Both the position numbers and the translations under genes were made by a program. The notes beneath the pieces are model-generated. The model made no database searches and was not told the DNA's origin. It saw only the letters and a list, made by a program, of their open reading frames with translations. A DNA stretch of 64,000 bases from a phage. The DNA lies in the sequence record PV806337.1. The stretch is one strand, 5' to 3'. Shown one piece after another: positions 5,567 through 50,029 of this stretch (position 1 is its first letter; each line of letters opens with the position of its first letter).

Positions 5567-7414
5567 TTACTTAGCTCGAATATCCTGATGTTTCACCCTG
5601 CCCATAACCTCATGCTGTTTGCCTGGGTTAAATGGACGAGCACCTGGATTTCCAAGATACCCACAAACTCGACGAGTTACTTCAAGAGTTTCGGGGTCAT
5701 GATTACCACAGATAGGGCACTTAAATCCATCTTCGGATGCTATTGTTTCACCTAAGAATCCACATTTACCACAAGAATCCACTGGAGTATTAATACCGAA
5801 GTAATGAACTTTACTAGCAGCATAATTAATAACCCATTCTAGTGCATCTGGGAATCGTTTCATATCCGGTAGTTCTACATAGGAAATACACCCACCAGAA
5901 GCAATCGGAGTAAAGTTAGATTCATAATCAAATTTCACATTGGGAGCAACTTTACGTTCCACATCAAGGTGGTGAGAGTTAGTGTAGTATCCTTTGGACA
6001 GAATATCTTCATGCTCCGGGAAATATTCACGATCTAAACGGCAAAACCTATCACACAGGGACTCTGACGGTGTAGCATACAGGCTATAACCTAACTTAGT
6101 TTCTTCCTTCTTCTGATCGACTCTATCTCGCATGTACTGCAATACACGCTGAACAAACTTGATGCTGGTCTCGGACATTGTGTCTACATCTTTGCCAAAC
6201 ATGAACTGTAGCATTTCATGACAACCAATATATCCTAGAGATACAGAAGCACGGTTATAGAAATGATCGAATACGTATTCATCAGGCTCCAAGCGCAGTC
6301 CAAAGGCTCCTGACATATAGAGGATGGGTGCAGCTTTAGCTTGAATGTATTTTAAGCGATCAACTCTCCACTCCAACGCTTTTAATGCTGTATCCACACG
6401 TAGCTCAAGCAAATCAAAGAATAGATCAATATTTCCTTCAGCTTCGATAGCAATTCTAGGCAAGTTTACAGAAACAACACCTAAGTTATTACGACCTGCA
6501 GTTTCACCATCTTCTGTAGCAGCTAGGAATGAACGGCAGCCCATAGAAACTTTATAGTCACCAGTAACTTCCACAACCTTATCATAGCTGATATAATCTG
6601 GATACATACGTTCAGCAGTACATTTCATAGCTAACTTCTTGATGTCATAATTAACATCCCCTGGTTTCATATTAACGCCATCACGGAGTACAAATACCAG
6701 TTTAGGGAAGATAGCTGTACGCTTATTGATACCTAAACCATCCATGCGTACTTTCAGTATTGCTTTCTGTACTAGACGTGCTTCCCAAGAAGTTCCTAGA
6801 CCAAAACCAAAGGTAATAAATGGACTCTGCCCATTAGAGTTGAACATGGTATTGATTTCATATTCTAAACCCTGACAAGCGTCATAGACTTCTTTTTCAG
6901 TCATCTCCGTAGCCATTACGGATGCTTTGGCTTCATCCTTAGTCCAACGTTTTGCAAACGCATGATTTTTGTCATAAGATTTACGAACATAAGGGGCTAA
7001 TACTTCATCAAGGCGATCTACAGAAGTACCACCATACTGATGGGAGCTAACCTGAGTGATAATCTGAGCAGTAATAGCCGCCGCAGTAGTGATAGAGTTT
7101 GGAGTGCTAATTTCAGCATTACCAACCTTCATACCATTCTTCAACATATCTTCCAGAGCTACCAGGCAACAGTTAGTCATACCTAATGCAGCATAATCAG
7201 CATCATGGAAATGAATATCCCCAATCATATGAGCATTTCGAATCTGAATTGGCATTTCTTCTAAAATCAGATACTTACTCAATTCACCTGCAAGCATATC
7301 CCTTTGTGTAGGGAAACGTTCACTCGGTTTGTTCGCGTTATTAAAAAGTAACTCTTCATTGGCAGATCCCTCAATAATTTCCTTACAATTTCTAATCAAT
7401 TCATCTTTGTTCAT
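5567..7414 (-). CDS. nrdD: anaerobic ribonucleoside-triphosphate reductase (class III RNR)
   Basis: ORF track 615 aa; C-terminal Zn ribbon CGKCG..CPICG and glycyl-radical motif RRVCGYLG. Confidence 0.85.
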   Translation of the reverse strand: MNKDELIRNCKEIIEGSANEELLFNNANKPSERFPTQRDMLAGELSKYLILEEMPIQIRNAHMIGDIHFHDADYAALGMTNCCLVALEDMLKNGMKVGNAEISTPNSITTAAAITAQIITQVSSHQYGGTSVDRLDEVLAPYVRKSYDKNHAFAKRWTKDEAKASVMATEMTEKEVYDACQGLEYEINTMFNSNGQSPFITFGFGLGTSWEARLVQKAILKVRMDGLGINKRTAIFPKLVFVLRDGVNMKPGDVNYDIKKLAMKCTAERMYPDYISYDKVVEVTGDYKVSMGCRSFLAATEDGETAGRNNLGVVSVNLPRIAIEAEGNIDLFFDLLELRVDTALKALEWRVDRLKYIQAKAAPILYMSGAFGLRLEPDEYVFDHFYNRASVSLGYIGCHEMLQFMFGKDVDTMSETSIKFVQRVLQYMRDRVDQKKEETKLGYSLYATPSESLCDRFCRLDREYFPEHEDILSKGYYTNSHHLDVERKVAPNVKFDYESNFTPIASGGCISYVELPDMKRFPDALEWVINYAASKVHYFGINTPVDSCGKCGFLGETIASEDGFKCPICGNHDPETLEVTRRVCGYLGNPGARPFNPGKQHEVMGRVKHQDIRAK

Positions 7415-8072
7415 TAATTATTTCCTCAATAAACCTTGCTACTACTTCTGGCTCAATACTAAAAAATTCTGTAGCACCATCAAAATCTTTATATTGACAA
7501 TTATATTCCTTAAACTGTAAATGGGTTTCTCTCTCAATATGCATAGCTTTTGATCTATCTGAAAAGCTATACTCCTTAAATATTTTTAAATCATGTATGT
7601 TAGAGGAAGTTTTAATATCTCTGAGTCTATCTTTAGTTCTGCTAGACACACCTATTTTGGTTCCCACATTACTTACTAAAATATATACGTTAGTAGGATA
7701 ATTATCCTTCTCTAATAAACATATAGGACAACCAGAATTATGATTTCTAACACTATCAAGTGTAGACTCCCATTTATGATCATTCTCACAGCTGAACATG
7801 ATTTTACTCTTGGAATTGATATATTTACCTTCCATCTTTATTCCACGGGCAGCTAAAGATTCATTTACTTCTTTAAGATCTAAAGTACGGCTAGCACAAT
7901 AAGGGCAACCTCTACCACCTTTTACGTTATCTACTCTAGCCTCCCAACTATGCCCATTAGAGCACTTAAATATAGCCTTGGATTTAGCTGATACATACGT
8001 GCTTAGCATAACTATTCCTCTAGGAGCAAGTGCTAAGTTCACATCTTCTGTAGTTATTTTCTTTCTTACCAT
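7401..8072 (-). CDS. tandem zinc-ribbon + T5orf172 (GIY-YIG-like) domain protein
   Basis: ORF track 223 aa; two repeats with GCPYC/GCPIC; C-terminal YILVSN..KIGVS..R..GATEFF pattern. Confidence 0.6.
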   Translation of the reverse strand: MVRKKITTEDVNLALAPRGIVMLSTYVSAKSKAIFKCSNGHSWEARVDNVKGGRGCPYCASRTLDLKEVNESLAARGIKMEGKYINSKSKIMFSCENDHKWESTLDSVRNHNSGCPICLLEKDNYPTNVYILVSNVGTKIGVSSRTKDRLRDIKTSSNIHDLKIFKEYSFSDRSKAMHIERETHLQFKEYNCQYKDFDGATEFFSIEPEVVARFIEEIINEQR

Positions 8073-8294
8073 TAAATTCTCCTTAATTCACATATTATAC
8101 ATAATTCCACCCCATACGTCAACTACATTTTTCTAATACTATTTGACTTTTGATTTTTATCAATTTTTATTGATGCTATACAGCATAATATCTTTACATA
8201 TAAATAAATGATTATCTAGTATCATATTTCTACCTTTATAAGCAAGTAAATTTTTTATTTAAAAGCAATATCATAGGTTTATTTAAAATTATAC

Positions 8295-8323: not shown

Positions 8324-8399
8324 ATATTTGTAAGTTGATAAACAAGATCTCTTTGTTGATCCTCTGTTAGAAGCGAAGTACACTATAGGAGTGTTATTT

Positions 8400-9152
8400 A
8401 TGGGAAAAGCACGTCAAAAAAGAGAGAACCGCAATGGTTCAAGAAAGCGTGGCAACAAGTATGAGAATAACGTAATTCAGGCTGATTTTTCTAATGATTA
8501 CGCTAACCCAGTTGCTAAATCCCTAGTAGGTAAAAACCGCGAGCAAAAATCATATATCAATATGATCAAGAACAACACAGTGACTGTGGGCATCGGTGAG
8601 CCAGGTACTGGTAAAACCTTTATTCCGTCCGTTCTTGCAGCTCAGGAACTCGTAGACATTCACTCAGATATTGAGCAAGTGATCCTCGTACGTCCTAATG
8701 AACCTCTAGGTAAGTCTCTTGGTATGCTTCCTGGTGATCTAGCAGAAAAGCTAGAGCCTTGGTTGGAGCCAATAGCTGATGGTATGAAATGGGCCATCGG
8801 CGATCATGCCTATAAGGGATATGTCGAACGTCAGAAAATTAAATTTTTGGCTGTCGAACATGCTCGTGGCAGAACTTTCAACAACTCCTATGTAATTGTC
8901 GATGAAGCTCAGAATATTTCCGTTGAGGCAATGATTTGTCTTCTAACTCGTGTAGGGCAAGACTGCCGTTTAATTATCTGCGGAGATATAGCTCAGAAAG
9001 ACATTAAAGGTGACTCAGGTCTAGCACTCCTTATGGAAGTCTATGAGAAATACGAAAATGCCCCATTCTCAATGATCGAATTGATTGATAACGTTCGTTC
9101 TGTTGAGTCTAAAGCATTCTATGACATCTTTAAAGACATGGGGAAGGTGTAA
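8400..9152 (+). CDS. phoH: PhoH-like ATPase
   Basis: ORF track frame; ATG 8400 with AGGAG 8 nt upstream; Walker A GEPGTGKT and Walker B VIVDEAQN. Confidence 0.8.
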   Translation: MGKARQKRENRNGSRKRGNKYENNVIQADFSNDYANPVAKSLVGKNREQKSYINMIKNNTVTVGIGEPGTGKTFIPSVLAAQELVDIHSDIEQVILVRPNEPLGKSLGMLPGDLAEKLEPWLEPIADGMKWAIGDHAYKGYVERQKIKFLAVEHARGRTFNNSYVIVDEAQNISVEAMICLLTRVGQDCRLIICGDIAQKDIKGDSGLALLMEVYEKYENAPFSMIELIDNVRSVESKAFYDIFKDMGKV

Positions 9153-14484: not shown

Positions 14485-14497
14485 TTTAAAATATTAT

Positions 14498-14527
14498 TTG
14501 CTTTAATCCCAGTACTTATAGTATAAT
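14498..14527 (+). promoter_or_regulatory. T5-type promoter upstream of HNH endonuclease
   Basis: TTGCTT at 14498-14503, TATAAT at 14522-14527. Confidence 0.6.
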
Positions 14528-14558
14528 ATCTCCTATATACATTATAGGAGATATATTT

Positions 14559-15113
14559 ATGATCGTACAAGAGGGGTGGACAAAAGAATCCGCACGTAAT
14601 AGGTTTATCTATAATCCTCTTACTGGGGAGATTTTAAATAGAATTAACAGTGGTAGGGCTAAGAAAGGACAGATAGCCGGGTACCTAGACAAGTCTACTG
14701 GATATATTCGGGTAACATTGGCAGGAAAAAGAATGAAAGGACATCAGTTAGCCTTCTTATACATGGAAGGATATATACCTGATACTATAGATCACATCAA
14801 CAGAATAAAATCTGATAATAGATGGTGTAATTTAAGGGAATCTTCACCCCAAGAGAATGCTAGAAATATTAAAGCAAGAAGTAAATCTGGTTATTTAGGG
14901 GTTGGGTGGCATAAGCCAAGTCAAAAATGGTGGGTATATACTAAAGATGTAAAAGGAGCGCAGATTAATGGTGGTTACTTTGATTATACGAAATTAGAGG
15001 AAGCAGTCAATAAAGCTAATGAACTCCGTCAGCAATTACATGGACATACTGCTATTTTAGAAGTTTTTAATCCTGATCAACCAATACCTACCATAGAGGA
15101 ACTTAATAAATGA
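14559..15113 (+). CDS. HNH homing endonuclease with AP2-like DNA-binding domain
   Basis: ORF track 184 aa; IDHINRIKSDNRWCNLR (HNH) and SKSGYLGVGWHK (AP2-like); own promoter at 14498-14527. Confidence 0.75.
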   Translation: MIVQEGWTKESARNRFIYNPLTGEILNRINSGRAKKGQIAGYLDKSTGYIRVTLAGKRMKGHQLAFLYMEGYIPDTIDHINRIKSDNRWCNLRESSPQENARNIKARSKSGYLGVGWHKPSQKWWVYTKDVKGAQINGGYFDYTKLEEAVNKANELRQQLHGHTAILEVFNPDQPIPTIEELNK

Positions 15114-24507: not shown

Positions 24508-24536
24508 TTGCTTGAATGCTAAATTCTCTGTATAAT
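24508..24536 (+). promoter_or_regulatory. T5-type promoter
   Basis: TTGCTT 24508-24513, 17 bp, TATAAT 24531-24536. Confidence 0.7.
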
Positions 24537-24566
24537 ATATCTATAAATTTGAGAGAGGAACCAAAT

Positions 24567-25085
24567 ATGAATGTTGATGAGCTAACACAGCACCTCTTAT
24601 CCAGAGGATTTGATACAGATAAATATCATTGCTGGTTAAGTCCGGAAGGATGGCTAACAGTCCCGTTGTATGACTTCTCCGGGATGTTGCGAGGCTATCA
24701 GACGTATAATCCTTCTGCTCCAAAAGGTCATGGTAAGTGTCCCTTTGAAGCTAAATATTTTACTTATTCTACTACCCAGTGTGTATGGGGACTAGAAACT
24801 CTCAATGGAGATGAAAAAGTAGTATTGATCGCTGAATCTGTATTTAAGGCAGTTGCGCTACATAACGCTGGTTATCCAGCCCTGGCAATGTTAGGTTCTT
24901 CTCCAGGAAAAGCGTTATTAAAGCAACTGAAATTATTACCTTTTAAATTGGTAGCTGTCGGAGACAACGATCCTGCGGGTGAAAAATTTGCTAGAAAATT
25001 AAACGGCTTTGTTTCTCCCGTAGATGTGGATGAGATGTCTACCGAAAACTTGAAAAATTTTCTTGCTATGAAGCTAAATTTCTAA
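24567..25085 (+). CDS. Toprim-domain protein (primase-like)
   Basis: In-frame ATG 24567 after promoter 24508-24536; LIAESVF..VAVGDNDPAGEKFA resembles DnaG Toprim. Confidence 0.55.
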   Translation: MNVDELTQHLLSRGFDTDKYHCWLSPEGWLTVPLYDFSGMLRGYQTYNPSAPKGHGKCPFEAKYFTYSTTQCVWGLETLNGDEKVVLIAESVFKAVALHNAGYPALAMLGSSPGKALLKQLKLLPFKLVAVGDNDPAGEKFARKLNGFVSPVDVDEMSTENLKNFLAMKLNF

Positions 25086-27437: not shown

Positions 27438-27513
27438 CGACCGTTGGCTGAATGGCTTAGGCGAAGGATTGCAAATCCTTTTTATGTGAGTTCAAATCTC
27501 ATGCGGTCGTCCA
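27438..27513 (+). tRNA. tRNA-Cys (anticodon GCA)
   Basis: Acceptor CGACCGT/GCGGTCG, anticodon stem AAGGA/TCCTT, loop TTGCAAA, T-loop TTCAAAT, CCA. Confidence 0.8.
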
Positions 27514-27534
27514 AATTACTAAAGGAAAGAAGTA

Positions 27535-28053
27535 GTGCATACAAAAGTTTTTGATAGTTTGGTAAAGAAAGGCGTTGTTACTAACGAGCCCTTCTATATA
27601 ACCGCAGAACTAATCCAGAGATTTATGGAAGAATATATAAATCTTTCAGGAACCAATGGTAATACCAAAAAGAATACAAATACTATGTATTCGAGAAAAC
27701 TTGCTGCACTTTCCTTTATAAAGTTTAAGCAGGAAAATAAACTTCCTATTTCTGAAGGTTTTGTATACTGTATTAGTAATCCTGCATGGAAAAATCAGTA
27801 TAAAATAGGTATGAGTCAAAATCCAAAAGAGAGATTAGCTCAATATCAGACTTATTCCCCTTATAGGGATTATAAGTTAGAGCATTGGTCTTTTTGGTTT
27901 GACAAACGAAAAGGTGAAAAACTAATTCACCAGTATTTCAAAGATTTAAAAGAACATGAGTGGTTTAGTATAAATTCTAGGGATCTTAGTAAATATCTAG
28001 AACGTATTAACTCTAGTTCTGACTTATATGGTTCCTTAGCTCTAATTGGTTAG
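27535..28053 (+). CDS. T5orf172 (GIY-YIG-like) domain protein
   Basis: ORF track 172 aa; FVYCISNP..YKIGMS..RL motif. Confidence 0.6.
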   Translation: MHTKVFDSLVKKGVVTNEPFYITAELIQRFMEEYINLSGTNGNTKKNTNTMYSRKLAALSFIKFKQENKLPISEGFVYCISNPAWKNQYKIGMSQNPKERLAQYQTYSPYRDYKLEHWSFWFDKRKGEKLIHQYFKDLKEHEWFSINSRDLSKYLERINSSSDLYGSLALIG

Positions 28054-28107
28054 AGCGGCATCTTGTTAAGTTGAGGGTTGCTGGTTCGAATCCTGCAGGA
28101 ACCGCCA
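28030..28107 (+). tRNA. tRNA-Asn (anticodon GTT)
   Basis: Acceptor GGTTCCT/AGGAACC perfect, D-arm GCTC-TAATTGGTTA-GAGC, anticodon loop TTGTTAA, T-loop TTCGAAT, CCA. Confidence 0.7.
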
Positions 28108-47481: not shown

Positions 47482-47505
47482 GAGTACATATAAAAGGAGA
47501 CTATA

Positions 47506-47739
47506 GTGGAAATTGTATTAGTTATTCTTGCAATAGCACTATTATTCGCAATCAGCGTATCTATTAAAAAGACTCGTGATCTTAATAGGACTATAGATGA
47601 TAACAGAAAACTACGTGGTGAAAAGGCTAGGCTTAACCTACAACATGAAGCTCTGAAGTTATTTGTAGTTCAGGGCAATAGAAACCATACTCCTGAAGAC
47701 TTTATTAAACAGCTTAAAAAGCACTTAGGGCTCAAATAA
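47506..47739 (+). CDS. small membrane-anchored protein
   Basis: ORF track 77 aa; AAGGAG RBS. Confidence 0.5.
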   Translation: MEIVLVILAIALLFAISVSIKKTRDLNRTIDDNRKLRGEKARLNLQHEALKLFVVQGNRNHTPEDFIKQLKKHLGLK

Positions 47740-48526: not shown

Positions 48527-49251
48527 TGAGTATAAAAAAGAATTTAGCAGAGATTATTAAGTTAGCTAGAGCTTGTAATGGAAAATGTGTTTCTCAGCTT
48601 AATGAACTAGAAGCACATGCAGTAGCATTTTGTGCAGAGTTTTATCCTGCATACCTTAATGCTAGTGGGCAACCTAAATATAATAAGGATGCCGAAGAAG
48701 TTACGTTAGCTCCTTCATATATTAGCTTGCGTCGTTTAATTCAAACCGTTGATCCTACTATTAAAGGATTCTCAGCAGATTCATTCCACGTCTTTGCAGA
48801 TAAAGAACTCCCGTATTTTAAAGAAGGAAATGCAAAGTCATGTTTAGAATGTTATCCTAATATACTGATGATTCCTCAAAAGCAATGTAAATACGATCAT
48901 CTTCCTAGACTTACAAAGAAAGTAGCACCACCTTATTCTTCTCTATCTGAATTAAAGCTAGGAATTGTATCTACACTTGCGCAGATTCATCTAAGTATAG
49001 TTGACGACTCAACAACATCTAACCCTATTCTAGATGCTGCTCACTTTGAAATTTTACGTGATCCTGAACAAGCTAGAAAAGTTGCTAAGTCTGTTAAGTT
49101 TGATATATCAACAATTCTTGACACTAAACAAGAAACTAGACCTAGAGGAAGTGTAGATTATTCTGCGCTAAATTCCGAGTCATCTTACTTAGCAACATTC
49201 CTTTTCATGGCGTCAAAAGGGGTTATTCTAAAGGTTAATAAAGATGGATGA
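48526..49251 (+). CDS. hypothetical protein
   Basis: ORF track 241 aa. Confidence 0.55.
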   Translation: MSIKKNLAEIIKLARACNGKCVSQLNELEAHAVAFCAEFYPAYLNASGQPKYNKDAEEVTLAPSYISLRRLIQTVDPTIKGFSADSFHVFADKELPYFKEGNAKSCLECYPNILMIPQKQCKYDHLPRLTKKVAPPYSSLSELKLGIVSTLAQIHLSIVDDSTTSNPILDAAHFEILRDPEQARKVAKSVKFDISTILDTKQETRPRGSVDYSALNSESSYLATFLFMASKGVILKVNKDG

Positions 49252-49972
49252 TTTACGTGCTGAAATTAATAAAAAGTTACGAGAGGAAGCCCGGAGGTTT
49301 CCTCTTAAAAACTTTTTGAAGTCAAATGGCTCTACTAATATAACGAAGATTAGGCAACTTCACCCTGACTTCCAACAAGAGGCCTTAAACCTTATCTTTA
49401 TTAGGAAAGCTTTAAAAGTCCAGAAAGAAGAGTATGGGTATGAAAGAGTTAATTATAAGACAGCCAATCAGTTAGTAGAGATATGGTGCTATAAACATAA
49501 AGGATACTTTATGCAAACTGCTAGATCTCACCTAGATGGGCACGGTTGTTTACAATGTGCTAGGGAAAGCAACCTAAATACACCTATCGAGAAACCGGAG
49601 GTAGAAGAAGATGTTCAGTCCCCCACATATCTCTATATCTTCTCTAATAAAGATCAGTCTAGGAAGAAATTAAAGACAAAGATTGGGGTTTCTAGAGAGC
49701 CACATCAAAGGTTTAAGAATCTAGAGTATGATAAATTGCGTGTGCCGGGTTTTGAAGATATGGAAGTATTTGGTATCTACCAGTATAAGAAAGGATCGAA
49801 AGAACTCGCTTACAAAATAGAACACCAAGCACATAAATTTTTCGAGAATAAATTTGCTAACCATTATAAATTCGATGGAGCAAAAGAGATATTCAACATT
49901 AAAGCTGTAGAGGCAGAAGAATATCTATTAAGTCAAGGTTGCATAAAAATTTACCCAACTCCAAACTCATGA
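49244..49972 (+). CDS. zinc-ribbon + T5orf172 (GIY-YIG-like) domain protein
   Basis: ORF track 242 aa; GHGCLQC ribbon; YLYIFSN..KIGVS..FDGAKEIF pattern. Confidence 0.6.
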   Translation: MDDLRAEINKKLREEARRFPLKNFLKSNGSTNITKIRQLHPDFQQEALNLIFIRKALKVQKEEYGYERVNYKTANQLVEIWCYKHKGYFMQTARSHLDGHGCLQCARESNLNTPIEKPEVEEDVQSPTYLYIFSNKDQSRKKLKTKIGVSREPHQRFKNLEYDKLRVPGFEDMEVFGIYQYKKGSKELAYKIEHQAHKFFENKFANHYKFDGAKEIFNIKAVEAEEYLLSQGCIKIYPTPNS

Positions 49973-49999
49973 CAAAAATTTAAAAGTAACGAAATCTGC

Positions 50000-50029
50000 T
50001 TGACATTCGTGAGAATAATGTGTTATAAT
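50000..50029 (+). promoter_or_regulatory. consensus sigma70 promoter (TTGACA-18-TATAAT) with no ORF downstream
   Basis: TTGACA 50000-50005, TATAAT 50024-50029; next about 300 nt lack a credible ORF and lead into the repeat field. Confidence 0.6.

What the first reader, a model, noticed from the sequence alone, without database searches (positions are those of the whole stretch)
7401..8072. Three zinc-ribbon / T5orf172-domain genes scattered through the window
Genes at 7401-8072 (reverse), 27535-28053 and 49244-49972 share a C-terminal Y.[IL].SN...KIG.S..R..RL ... GATEFF/GAKEIF pattern typical of the T5orf172 (GIY-YIG-related) domain. Two of them also have N-terminal CPxC zinc ribbons. Their placement at operon boundaries, next to nrdD, inside the tRNA region and at the end of the early region, is reminiscent of homing-endonuclease-like selfish genes.
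Basis: partly seen in the sequence, partly recalled or inferred. Interest (0 to 1): 0.5.

Follow-up and report, generated by a model that had tools for sequence, protein, structure and literature searches.

The report
Three T5orf172 homing-endonuclease-type genes
The window comes from a T5-like phage and carries three intact nuclease genes of the T5orf172 (GIY-YIG-like) family that come and go between close relatives like selfish homing-endonuclease genes, a pattern already described for T5-like phages.

Summary

- **g1 (7401-8072, minus strand).** It has two treble-clef zinc fingers plus the nuclease domain. It lies upstream of nrdD, in a slot that in 29 relatives is empty in 19. Nine others hold a T5orf172 gene (one g1-type, eight of two other lineages), and one holds an HNH gene.
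- **g2 (27535-28053).** Its protein is identical to phage T5 ORF065. It lies between tRNA-Cys and tRNA-Asn and always travels with its own tRNA-Asn allele.
- **g3 (49244-49972).** It is a clean ~737-bp insertion at the end of an early operon. Its N-terminus is homologous to a conserved nuclease-less T5 protein (ORF022 family).

Each gene is rare among ~430-500 T5-like records (about 5%, 16% and 8%). They assort independently, and sequence divergence rises at the junctions. Cleavage and homing are untested. Barth et al. 2023 already reported T5orf172 homing-type genes as abundant in T5-like phages and often near ribonucleotide reductase genes. Interest is therefore low; the tRNA-Asn linkage and the nuclease-less paralogue are the only fresh details.

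The parts
7401..8072 (-). g1: free-standing T5orf172 endonuclease gene (223 aa). Its stop overlaps the nrdD start at 7412-7414.
   Evidence: ORF; Pfam and PHROG (phrog_681 'endonuclease', 1.9e-49); the exact protein is in public collections.
7890..7988 (-). g1 zinc finger 1 (aa 29-61; C37, H41, C56, C59)
   Evidence: DUF4379 treble-clef domain
7719..7835 (-). g1 zinc finger 2 (aa 80-118; C95, H99, C115, C118)
   Evidence: DUF4379 / CapR-homology hits
7419..7694 (-). g1 T5orf172 nuclease domain (aa 127-218; Y130, K139-I-G141, R149, H184, E202)
   Evidence: Pfam; conserved columns
7400..8205 (-). g1 cassette: the segment with no homology in HEG-less relatives. It replaces about 200 bp holding the first codons and upstream region of nrdD.
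   Evidence: Alignment with FFH1 (empty), phiLLS (HNH), AKFV33 and NR01
8094..8122 (-). Near-consensus sigma-70-like promoter (TTGACG-17-TATAAT) inside the cassette, 22 nt upstream of g1. It would also drive nrdD.
   Evidence: Pattern scan (a consensus match only)
7300..7399 (-). Recoded 5' tract of nrdD next to g1. It shows 41/50 and 38/50 matches to the empty allele, against about 48/50 elsewhere, and the protein is nearly identical from 'LIRNCKEII' onwards. This is the candidate target or co-conversion tract.
27535..28053 (+). g2: 172-aa T5orf172/MUG113 protein with an N-terminal three-helix domain. It is identical to phage T5 ORF065.
   Evidence: AlphaFold model with pLDDT 85.9
27757..28008 (+). 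g2 nuclease domain (aa 75-158; Y78, K90-I-G92, R100, E142)
27518..28082 (+). g2 variable segment: g2 plus the 5' two-thirds of tRNA-Asn allele A. Homology to g2-less phages stops just after tRNA-Cys and resumes in the T-arm of tRNA-Asn.
27438..27513 (+). tRNA-Cys, the conserved left flank of g2
28030..28107 (+). tRNA-Asn(GTT) allele A (78 nt), overlapped by the last 24 nt of g2. It is linked to g2 in 8 of 9 contigs carrying this allele.
49244..49972 (+). g3: 242-aa T5orf172 endonuclease gene. Its start overlaps the stop of the upstream 241-aa gene (ATGGATGA).
49244..49561 (+). g3 N-terminal module (aa 1-106, helical region plus finger C82/H85/C102/C105). It is homologous to the nuclease-less T5 ORF022 family (about 62% aa, about 70% nt).
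49628..49921 (+). g3 nuclease domain (aa 129-226; Y131, K146-I-G148, R156, H197, E215)
49250..49986 (+). g3 insert: absent from GSP044, phage 1-23 and two IMG/VR contigs (L040, L041). In those genomes the upstream gene's stop is followed within a few bases by TAACGAAA and the promoter.
50000..50029 (+). Conserved 12/12 sigma-70 promoter forming the right flank of the g3 slot

Best explanation
The three genes are free-standing homing-endonuclease-type genes of the T5orf172 branch of the GIY-YIG nuclease superfamily, resident in a Tequintavirus (T5-like) genome.

Proposed mechanism. Each protein pairs a DNA-recognition module with a small GIY-YIG-like nuclease domain. The module is two treble-clef zinc fingers in g1, a helical region plus one finger in g3, and a three-helix domain in g2. 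In a cell co-infected by a relative that lacks the gene, the protein binds and cuts the HEG-less allele close to its own insertion point. The break is repaired by recombination from the HEG-carrying genome. This copies the gene together with adjacent sequence.

Predicted targets:
- g1: the 5' end or promoter region of nrdD.
- g2: the alternative tRNA-Asn allele.
- g3: the 3' end of the 241-aa gene or the short spacer before the conserved promoter.

Shown here: family membership, fold, conservation of the catalytic-type Arg and Glu, intactness, purifying selection on g2 and g3 (weaker on g1), presence/absence polymorphism with defined junctions, alternative occupants of the same slots, a recombination boundary at the g1/nrdD junction, and independent assortment of the three genes.

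Inferred, not shown: DNA cleavage, target positions and unidirectional transfer.
For: **Family and fold**
- Pfam T5orf172 is above cut-off for all three genes.
- The g3 model hits HIGLE 6.7, SLX1 6.6/6.5, I-TevI 4.5, UvrC and Eco29kI.
- A T5orf172 protein, ICP1 Odn, cleaves DNA in vitro and is inactivated by mutating the conserved Glu (PMC8263062). That Glu is a conserved column in all three genes.

**Polymorphism**
- g1 flanks occur in 442 phage records, but g1 at >=90% aa occurs in 21.
- Of 29 IMG/VR loci anchored on phoH, 19 are empty (including a 121,750-bp contig, the length of the T5 genome), 1 has g1, 8 have two other T5orf172 lineages (43-46% aa) and 1 has an HNH gene.
- g2 at >=95% aa occurs in 79 of about 450-500 records.
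- g3 at >=90% aa occurs in 35 of 430 records. The same slot holds g3 in 3, a 117-aa T5orf172-only gene in 3 and nothing in 4 of 10 loci.

**Junctions**
- Junctions are defined.
- Both the occupied and empty states carry unique sequence at the g1 and g2 sites. This indicates replacement rather than simple deletion.
- Divergence rises at the junctions: nrdD falls from about 48/50 to 38/50 with the protein kept, and the g3 left flank falls from 38-40/40 to 29/40.

**Recombination boundary.** NR01 shares g1 and the phoH side at 98.5% nt, but its nrdD is only about 66% aa identical.

**Independent assortment**

| Phage | g1 slot | g2 | g3 |
|---|---|---|---|
| T5 | empty | present | absent |
| GSP044 | empty | absent | absent |
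| SE11-size contig | empty | absent | present |
| NBEco002 | other allele | present | not assessed |

**Selection.** All copies are intact. dN/dS is 0.03-0.06 for g3, 0 for g2 and 0.08-0.48 for g1.

**Literature.** T5orf172 HEGs are reported as abundant in T5-like phages, often near nrd genes, carrying CapR/DUF723/DUF4379 fingers, and sitting at boundaries of genetic exchange (PMC10448857).
Against: - No cleavage or homing has been demonstrated for these genes. According to Barth et al. 2023, none has been shown for any T5orf172 HEG.
- Presence/absence alone cannot give the direction of change (gain versus loss).
- g2 has no recognisable DNA-binding domain.
- The strong purifying selection on g2 and g3 would also fit a function useful to the phage.
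- g2 is fixed at one position with one spacing wherever it was seen. Recent movement is therefore not demonstrated.
Confidence: 0.8

Rival explanations
1. They are nucleases kept because they benefit the phage, for example by excluding co-infecting relatives, destroying satellites or other competitors as ICP1 Odn does, or shuffling useful alleles. They would not be purely selfish homing elements. This rival overlaps with the main explanation, because the molecular activity would be the same.
For: - g3 (dN/dS 0.03-0.06 with dS up to 0.18) and g2 are under strong purifying selection, and all copies are intact.
- g1 supplies the promoter and a translationally coupled start for nrdD.
- g2 travels with a functional tRNA allele.
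- Precedent: Odn is a T5orf172 nuclease used against a satellite.
Against: - Each gene is missing from the large majority of otherwise very similar phages.
- The slots are filled interchangeably by unrelated nuclease classes. This is what selfish elements do and is not expected of a needed function.
- No target such as a satellite is known for T5-like phages.
Confidence: 0.25
2. They are ordinary accessory genes whose patchy distribution results from general recombination and deletion in mosaic phage genomes, with no contribution from their own nuclease activity.
For: - T5-like genomes are highly mosaic, especially the tRNA region.
- Other small genes nearby also come and go. Examples are the ORF022 block missing from the window and an extra 162-aa gene in GSP044.
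Against: - All three variable genes carry the same nuclease domain.
- Alternative occupants of the g1 and g3 slots are again nucleases, either HNH or T5orf172.
- Junction-proximal recoding and a breakpoint exactly at the gene border are signatures of endonuclease-driven gene conversion.
Confidence: 0.1
3. They are DNA-binding regulators without nuclease activity.
For: - UniProt names seen.
- History of the annotation summarised in PMC8096241.
- Nuclease-less relatives such as CapR, and here the ORF022 family, do exist.
Against: - The domain folds like GIY-YIG nucleases.
- It keeps the Arg and Glu that are catalytic in I-TevI and in Odn.
- The DNA-binding role is already covered by separate zinc-finger modules in g1 and g3.
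Confidence: 0.05

Closest known systems
T5orf172 homing endonuclease genes of ICP1 and of T5-like phages (Barth, Dunham & Seed 2023, PMC10448857)
   Same: - Same Pfam domain.
- Same architecture: N-terminal CapR/DUF723/DUF4379 zinc fingers plus a C-terminal T5orf172 domain.
- Same placement next to ribonucleotide reductase genes and at boundaries of genetic exchange.
- Same variable presence between close isolates.
- T5-like phages are explicitly named there as enriched in these genes.
   Different: That paper gives no locus-level description of these three sites. Not described there, as far as I read, are the tRNA-Asn allele linkage of g2 and the relation of g3 to the nuclease-less ORF022 family. 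g2 lacks a zinc finger.
Phage T5 ORF065 / T5.069 (172 aa), probably the ORF after which the T5orf172 domain is named
   Same: The g2 protein is identical to T5 ORF065 (AAX12002.1). It sits at the same place between tRNA-Cys and tRNA-Asn.
   Different: None at protein level. That this is the eponymous 'orf172' is my inference from its length of 172 aa and its UniProt names. The founding paper was not available to check.
Odn (ICP1 gp88), a chimeric T5orf172 nuclease (PMC8263062)
   Same: The T5orf172 nuclease domain is fused to a DNA-binding module shared with another protein. g3 likewise shares its N-terminus with the ORF022 family. Odn is the experimental proof that the domain cleaves DNA through the conserved Glu.
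   Different: Odn's DNA-binding module is a RepA_N domain taken from a satellite, and it serves as anti-satellite immunity. g3's module is a phage-resident zinc-finger protein, and no satellite is known here.
T4 SegB (GIY-YIG) and the T5 HNH enzymes F-TflI/II/IV, free-standing endonucleases inside tRNA gene clusters (PMC2330249; Akulenko et al. 2004 as cited there)
   Same: Like g2, these genes are embedded in a tRNA cluster without a promoter of their own. SegB causes preferential inheritance of the tRNA region in mixed infection.
   Different: They have different nuclease subfamilies or folds (canonical GIY-YIG, HNH). No activity data exist for g2.
T-even seg/mob endonucleases next to nrd genes (review PMC2988022)
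   Same: Ribonucleotide reductase genes, including nrdD, are recurrent targets of several endonuclease classes. The g1 slot likewise hosts T5orf172 or HNH genes.
   Different: The phage family is different, and g1 uses the T5orf172 domain with treble-clef fingers.
CapR of the PLE satellite, a 'domesticated endonuclease' DNA-binding domain (PMC8096241)
   Same: It is a nuclease-less homologue of the DNA-binding part of T5orf172 HEGs that is kept as a functional protein. The T5 ORF022 family looks analogous relative to g3 (dN/dS 0.02-0.12).
   Different: CapR is encoded by a satellite and represses a phage capsid operon. The ORF022 family is phage-encoded and of unknown function. It is absent from this window.

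Membership tests
Pfam T5orf172 (PF10544) | Score above the curated gathering threshold (20 bits) | tested here: met
   41.7, 47.6 and 27.6 bits for g1, g2 and g3
GIY-YIG nuclease superfamily | Alpha/beta fold of the GIY-YIG catalytic domain | tested here: met
GIY-YIG nuclease superfamily | Conserved Tyr-containing strands and the catalytic Arg and Glu | tested here: met
   The conserved residues are Y130/KIG139-141/R149/E202 in g1, Y78/KIG90-92/R100/E142 in g2 and Y131/KIG146-148/R156/E215 in g3. They are invariant among the three genes and among 16 g2 homologues. Equivalence to I-TevI R27/E75 rests on the published alignment for Odn, not on an alignment made here.
GIY-YIG nuclease superfamily | Match to the canonical GIY-YIG sequence model (PF01541) | tested here: not met
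   Only g2 matches, at E 0.087 and 13.6 bits against a cut-off of 22.6. The genes are therefore filed under the T5orf172 branch of the clan, not as canonical GIY-YIG.
Free-standing homing endonuclease gene | Nuclease domain joined to a separate DNA-recognition module | tested here: met
   g1 has two DUF4379/CapR fingers. g3 has one DUF723-type finger. For g2 this is inconclusive: it has a confidently modelled N-terminal three-helix domain of unknown function.
Free-standing homing endonuclease gene | Presence/absence polymorphism at the same site among close relatives, with identifiable empty sites | tested here: met
Free-standing homing endonuclease gene | Signs of co-conversion: altered flanking sequence next to the gene and recombination breakpoints at its border | tested here: met
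   Junction-proximal divergence is shown. In NR01, g1 is 98.5% nt identical while nrdD is about 66% aa identical. The 5' part of tRNA-Asn is replaced together with g2.
Free-standing homing endonuclease gene | Site-specific cleavage of the HEG-less allele | not testable with these tools
   Needs purified protein and empty-site DNA
Free-standing homing endonuclease gene | Biased (super-Mendelian) inheritance in mixed infection that depends on the nuclease | not testable with these tools
   Needs phage crosses
Anti-phage defence systems (PADLOC) | Match to a defence-system protein model | tested here: not met
   Only weak domain-level hits to the candidate PDC-S57 (g2 6.4e-8, g1 1.6e-3, g3 none). 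The genes are phage-borne.

The most novel reading that the evidence does not exclude
These T5orf172 genes may act as vehicles and raw material for functional change in T5-like phages, rather than as simple parasites.

- g2 moves as a unit with its own tRNA-Asn allele. Contigs with allele A carry g2 in 8 of 9 cases; contigs with allele B carry it in 0 of 16.
- g1 brings a new promoter and a new N-terminus for nrdD.
- The widely conserved, strongly constrained T5 ORF022 family would be a domesticated, nuclease-less derivative of a g3-type endonuclease, working as a DNA-binding regulator or as a site protector. This would be a phage-internal counterpart of the satellite protein CapR.
Probability: 0.3. 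Interest if true: 0.45.

Novelty: already known. Interest (0 to 1): 0.22.

Why it matters
The finding explains part of the mosaicism of T5-like genomes. It also marks three places where gene conversion is likely to distort phylogenies and comparative annotation: the 5' end of nrdD, tRNA-Asn, and the end of the early operon.

It gives concrete pairs of occupied and empty sites on which the still-missing experimental proof of homing by a T5orf172 enzyme could be obtained in an easy model, T5-like phages on E. coli K-12.

The tRNA-Asn linkage and the nuclease-less ORF022 paralogue are small new leads. They bear on how such nucleases carry cargo and get domesticated.

Tried and rejected
- **PDB sequence search.** Searches with g1 and g2 found no relative.
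- **NCBIfam and PADLOC.** NCBIfam has no model for any of the three genes. PADLOC gave only weak domain hits.
- **I-TevI comparison.** The residue equivalence to I-TevI is therefore taken from the literature, not shown here.
- **Shallow alignments.** The search for homologous proteins returned few relatives for g1 (7) and g3 (4). The g3 alignment for AlphaFold was therefore shallow and the model is only moderately confident (pLDDT 70.2). g1 itself was not modelled.
- **g3 anchor.** Anchoring the g3 site on the upstream 241-aa protein gave only 7 loci because that protein is itself variable. I re-anchored on the conserved promoter.
- **g3 and the terminal repeat, rejected.** I considered that g3 abuts the terminal-repeat boundary, since the Kenya-K36 annotation puts the DTR 9 bp from g3. 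In T5 the repeat ends about 700 bp from the first early gene, so that annotation is not reliable.
- **Hef link, unverified.** I tried to link g1 to the experimentally characterised Hef endonuclease of phage U5. Only 'Hef-like' annotations were found. The original paper is not held, and a T4-like homologue I inspected lies in a different locus.
- **T5 nicks, rejected.** I considered whether the genes could make the site-specific nicks of T5 DNA. T5 itself lacks g1 and g3.
Full report
**What the window is.** All three loci match hundreds of Tequintavirus/Epseptimavirus (T5-like, Demerecviridae) genomes at 85-99% nucleotide identity. The nearest relatives differ from locus to locus: NG_A1 and YJin-2024a at g1, S130/S131 at g2, NG_A1 at g3. 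The window also holds 21 tRNA genes.

**Observation.**
- ORFs lie exactly at 7401-8072(-), 27535-28053(+) and 49244-49972(+).
- All three pass the Pfam T5orf172 gathering threshold, and the related MUG113 model too.
- g1 has two DUF4379 treble-clef zinc fingers that also hit the CapR-homology model.
- g3 has one finger (C82/H85/C102/C105; CLQC, not CPxC). It aligns with g1's second finger and has a precomputed DUF723 hit.
- g2 has no finger.
- The C-terminal domains share the Tyr strand, K-I-G, Arg, His and Glu. They are detectably similar pairwise: g1-g3 6e-9, g1-g2 2e-5.
- No fourth T5orf172 ORF exists in the window, but there is an HNH_3 gene at 14490-15110.

**Fold.**
- No solved structure is related by sequence.
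- The less confident g3 model (pLDDT 70.2) finds HIGLE, SLX1, I-TevI, AtGRXS16, UvrC, Eco29kI and T4 EndoII.
- The canonical GIY-YIG Pfam model is not reached, and a profile comparison with I-TevI failed. The genes therefore belong to the T5orf172 branch of the clan.
- That this branch cleaves DNA through the conserved Glu is known from ICP1 Odn (PMC8263062).

**g1 locus.** g1 lies between nrdD (5567-7414, minus strand) and a phoH-like gene (8391-9152, plus strand).
- *Junctions.* Aligned with phage FFH1, which lacks the gene, homology ends at about 7400 and resumes at about 8205. The roughly 805-bp cassette replaces about 200 bp that hold the first codons and upstream region of nrdD. In occupied genomes nrdD is 9 codons shorter and its new start overlaps the end of g1.
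- *Promoter.* The cassette carries a near-consensus promoter 22 nt upstream of g1.
- *Recoding.* The last 100 bp of nrdD next to g1 drop from about 48/50 to 41 and 38/50 matches, while the protein is almost unchanged from 'LIRNCKEII' onwards.
- *Slot states.* In 29 IMG/VR loci anchored on phoH, the slot is empty in 19, including a 121,750-bp contig of the length of the T5 genome. One locus holds g1 (the NR01-length contig), eight hold two other T5orf172 lineages only 43-46% identical to g1, and one holds an HNH gene as in phiLLS.
- *Frequency.* Among 442 GenBank phage records with the flanks, 21 have g1 at >=90% aa.
- *Recombination boundary.* NR01 shares g1 and the phoH side at 98.5% nt, but its nrdD is only about 66% aa identical. 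A recombination boundary therefore lies at the g1/nrdD junction.

**g2 locus.**
- *Identity.* The g2 protein is identical to T5 ORF065 (AAX12002.1) and to a BF23 protein. It is nearly identical to T5.069, also 172 aa. It is probably the ORF that gave the domain its name; this is an inference.
- *Position.* It sits between tRNA-Cys and tRNA-Asn, has no promoter of its own, and its last 24 nt run into tRNA-Asn.
- *Empty sites.* In g2-less phages the two tRNA genes are 7-10 bp apart (NBSal003, SIA3lw), or separated by an unrelated 152-bp spacer (GSP044).
- *tRNA-Asn allele.* The tRNA-Asn of g2-less phages is a different allele: 83 nt against 78 nt, alignable only in the T-arm and acceptor end. 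Homology to the window resumes at 28083, inside the tRNA.
- *Linkage.* In IMG/VR, 8 of 9 contigs with allele A have g2 at the same 516-bp spacing, and 0 of 16 with allele B have it.
- *Frequency.* g2 at >=95% aa occurs in 79 of about 450-500 records with the flanks.

**g3 locus.** g3 is the last gene of a rightward early operon.
- *Junctions.* Its ATG overlaps the stop of the upstream 241-aa gene. In GSP044, phage 1-23 and two IMG/VR contigs the stop is followed within a few bases by TAACGAAA and a conserved 12/12 promoter (50000-50029). The insert is therefore 49250-49986.
- *Junction divergence.* The last 40 bp of the left flank fall to 29/40 matches, against 38-40/40 further away.
- *Frequency.* g3 at >=90% aa is in 35 of 430 records.
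- *Slot states.* Of 10 loci anchored on the promoter, 3 have g3, 4 are empty, and 3 hold a 117-aa T5orf172-only gene 38-40% identical to the g3 C-terminus in the same slot; one of these is the FFH1 contig.
- *ORF022 relation.* The first 106 residues of g3 are about 62% identical (about 70% nt) to a conserved nuclease-less protein of 148-180 aa (T5 ORF022, phrog_4605, DUF723 finger). That gene normally lies about 1.7 kb upstream and is missing from this window. The family is under strong purifying selection, dN/dS 0.02-0.12.
- *Reading.* g3 thus looks like a product of domain shuffling, or ORF022 like a domesticated remnant. The parallels are Odn and CapR.

**Selection and assortment.**
- All copies examined are intact. 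dN/dS is 0.03-0.06 for g3, 0 for g2 and 0.08-0.48 for g1.
- The three genes assort independently: T5 has only g2, GSP044 has none, an SE11-size contig has only g3, and NBEco002 has another allele in the g1 slot plus g2.

**Interpretation.**
- The best explanation is three free-standing homing-endonuclease-type genes. They would cut HEG-less alleles near their insertion points and be copied by recombinational repair together with neighbouring sequence.
- Architecture, fold, polymorphism, junctions and the breakpoint are shown. Cleavage, target positions and biased inheritance are inferred.
- The rivals are a beneficial nuclease, a passive accessory gene and a pure DNA-binding regulator. They are less likely for the reasons given in their entries.

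**Comparison with what is known.**
- Barth, Dunham & Seed 2023 (PMC10448857) describe T5orf172 HEGs, their zinc-finger modules, their enrichment in T5-like phages, their association with nrd genes and their position at boundaries of exchange.
- Other papers note that homing endonucleases drive most differences among T5-like genomes (PMC10644984; PMC8594841).
- The proteins are already in public databases as 'endonuclease', 'GIY-YIG nuclease family protein' or 'T5orf172 domain-containing protein'.
- The finding is therefore real but already known. The g2/tRNA-Asn cassette, the alternative occupants of the g3 slot and the ORF022 relation are minor new details.

Noticed in passing
window 28030-28107 (tRNA-Asn) with 27535-28053; loci L053-L077: T5-like phages carry two very different tRNA-Asn(GTT) alleles. 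Allele A (78 nt, in the window) is linked to g2 in 8 of 9 contigs. Allele B (83 nt, with a long variable arm) is never linked to g2 (0 of 16).
   Followed up: yes
window 47485-47607 (deletion junction); L044:2510-2956, L051:4320-4808(-): The conserved T5 ORF022 family (phrog_4605, DUF723 finger, 148-180 aa) is a nuclease-less homologue of the g3 N-terminus. It is under strong purifying selection (dN/dS 0.02-0.12). The gene and its two small neighbours are missing from this window.
   Followed up: partly
L082 (FFH1 contig), slot equivalent to window 49250-49986: In FFH1-type phages the g3 slot holds a 117-aa protein that consists of a T5orf172 domain alone. It is 38-40% identical to the g3 C-terminus and overlaps the stop of a divergent upstream gene.
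   Followed up: partly
window 14490-15110 (+): A further homing-endonuclease-like gene is present. It has an HNH_3 domain (4.4e-12) with a weak AP2/Arm-like C-terminus and is related to the HNH gene that occupies the g1 slot in phiLLS.
   Followed up: partly
window 5567-7414 (nrdD); loci L006-L034: nrdD exists in at least three very divergent alleles among otherwise similar T5-like phages: the N-terminal 200 aa are 99.5%, 92% or 66% identical to the window's. The alleles partly co-vary with the T5orf172 lineage upstream.
   Followed up: partly
L047:885-1036 (GSP044), between tRNA-Cys and tRNA-Asn(B): A 152-bp spacer unrelated to g2 is shared by many g2-less phages. Its nature is unknown; it could be a small RNA or a remnant.
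   Followed up: no
window 24516-25085 (+): A 189-aa ORF next to tRNA-Ser has a Toprim-like domain (Toprim_2, 2.6e-5).
   Followed up: no
L036:2342-2830 (GSP044): An extra 162-aa gene with no Pfam match lies between the 200-aa and 241-aa early genes in GSP044. It is absent from the window and is another variable gene in this operon.
   Followed up: no
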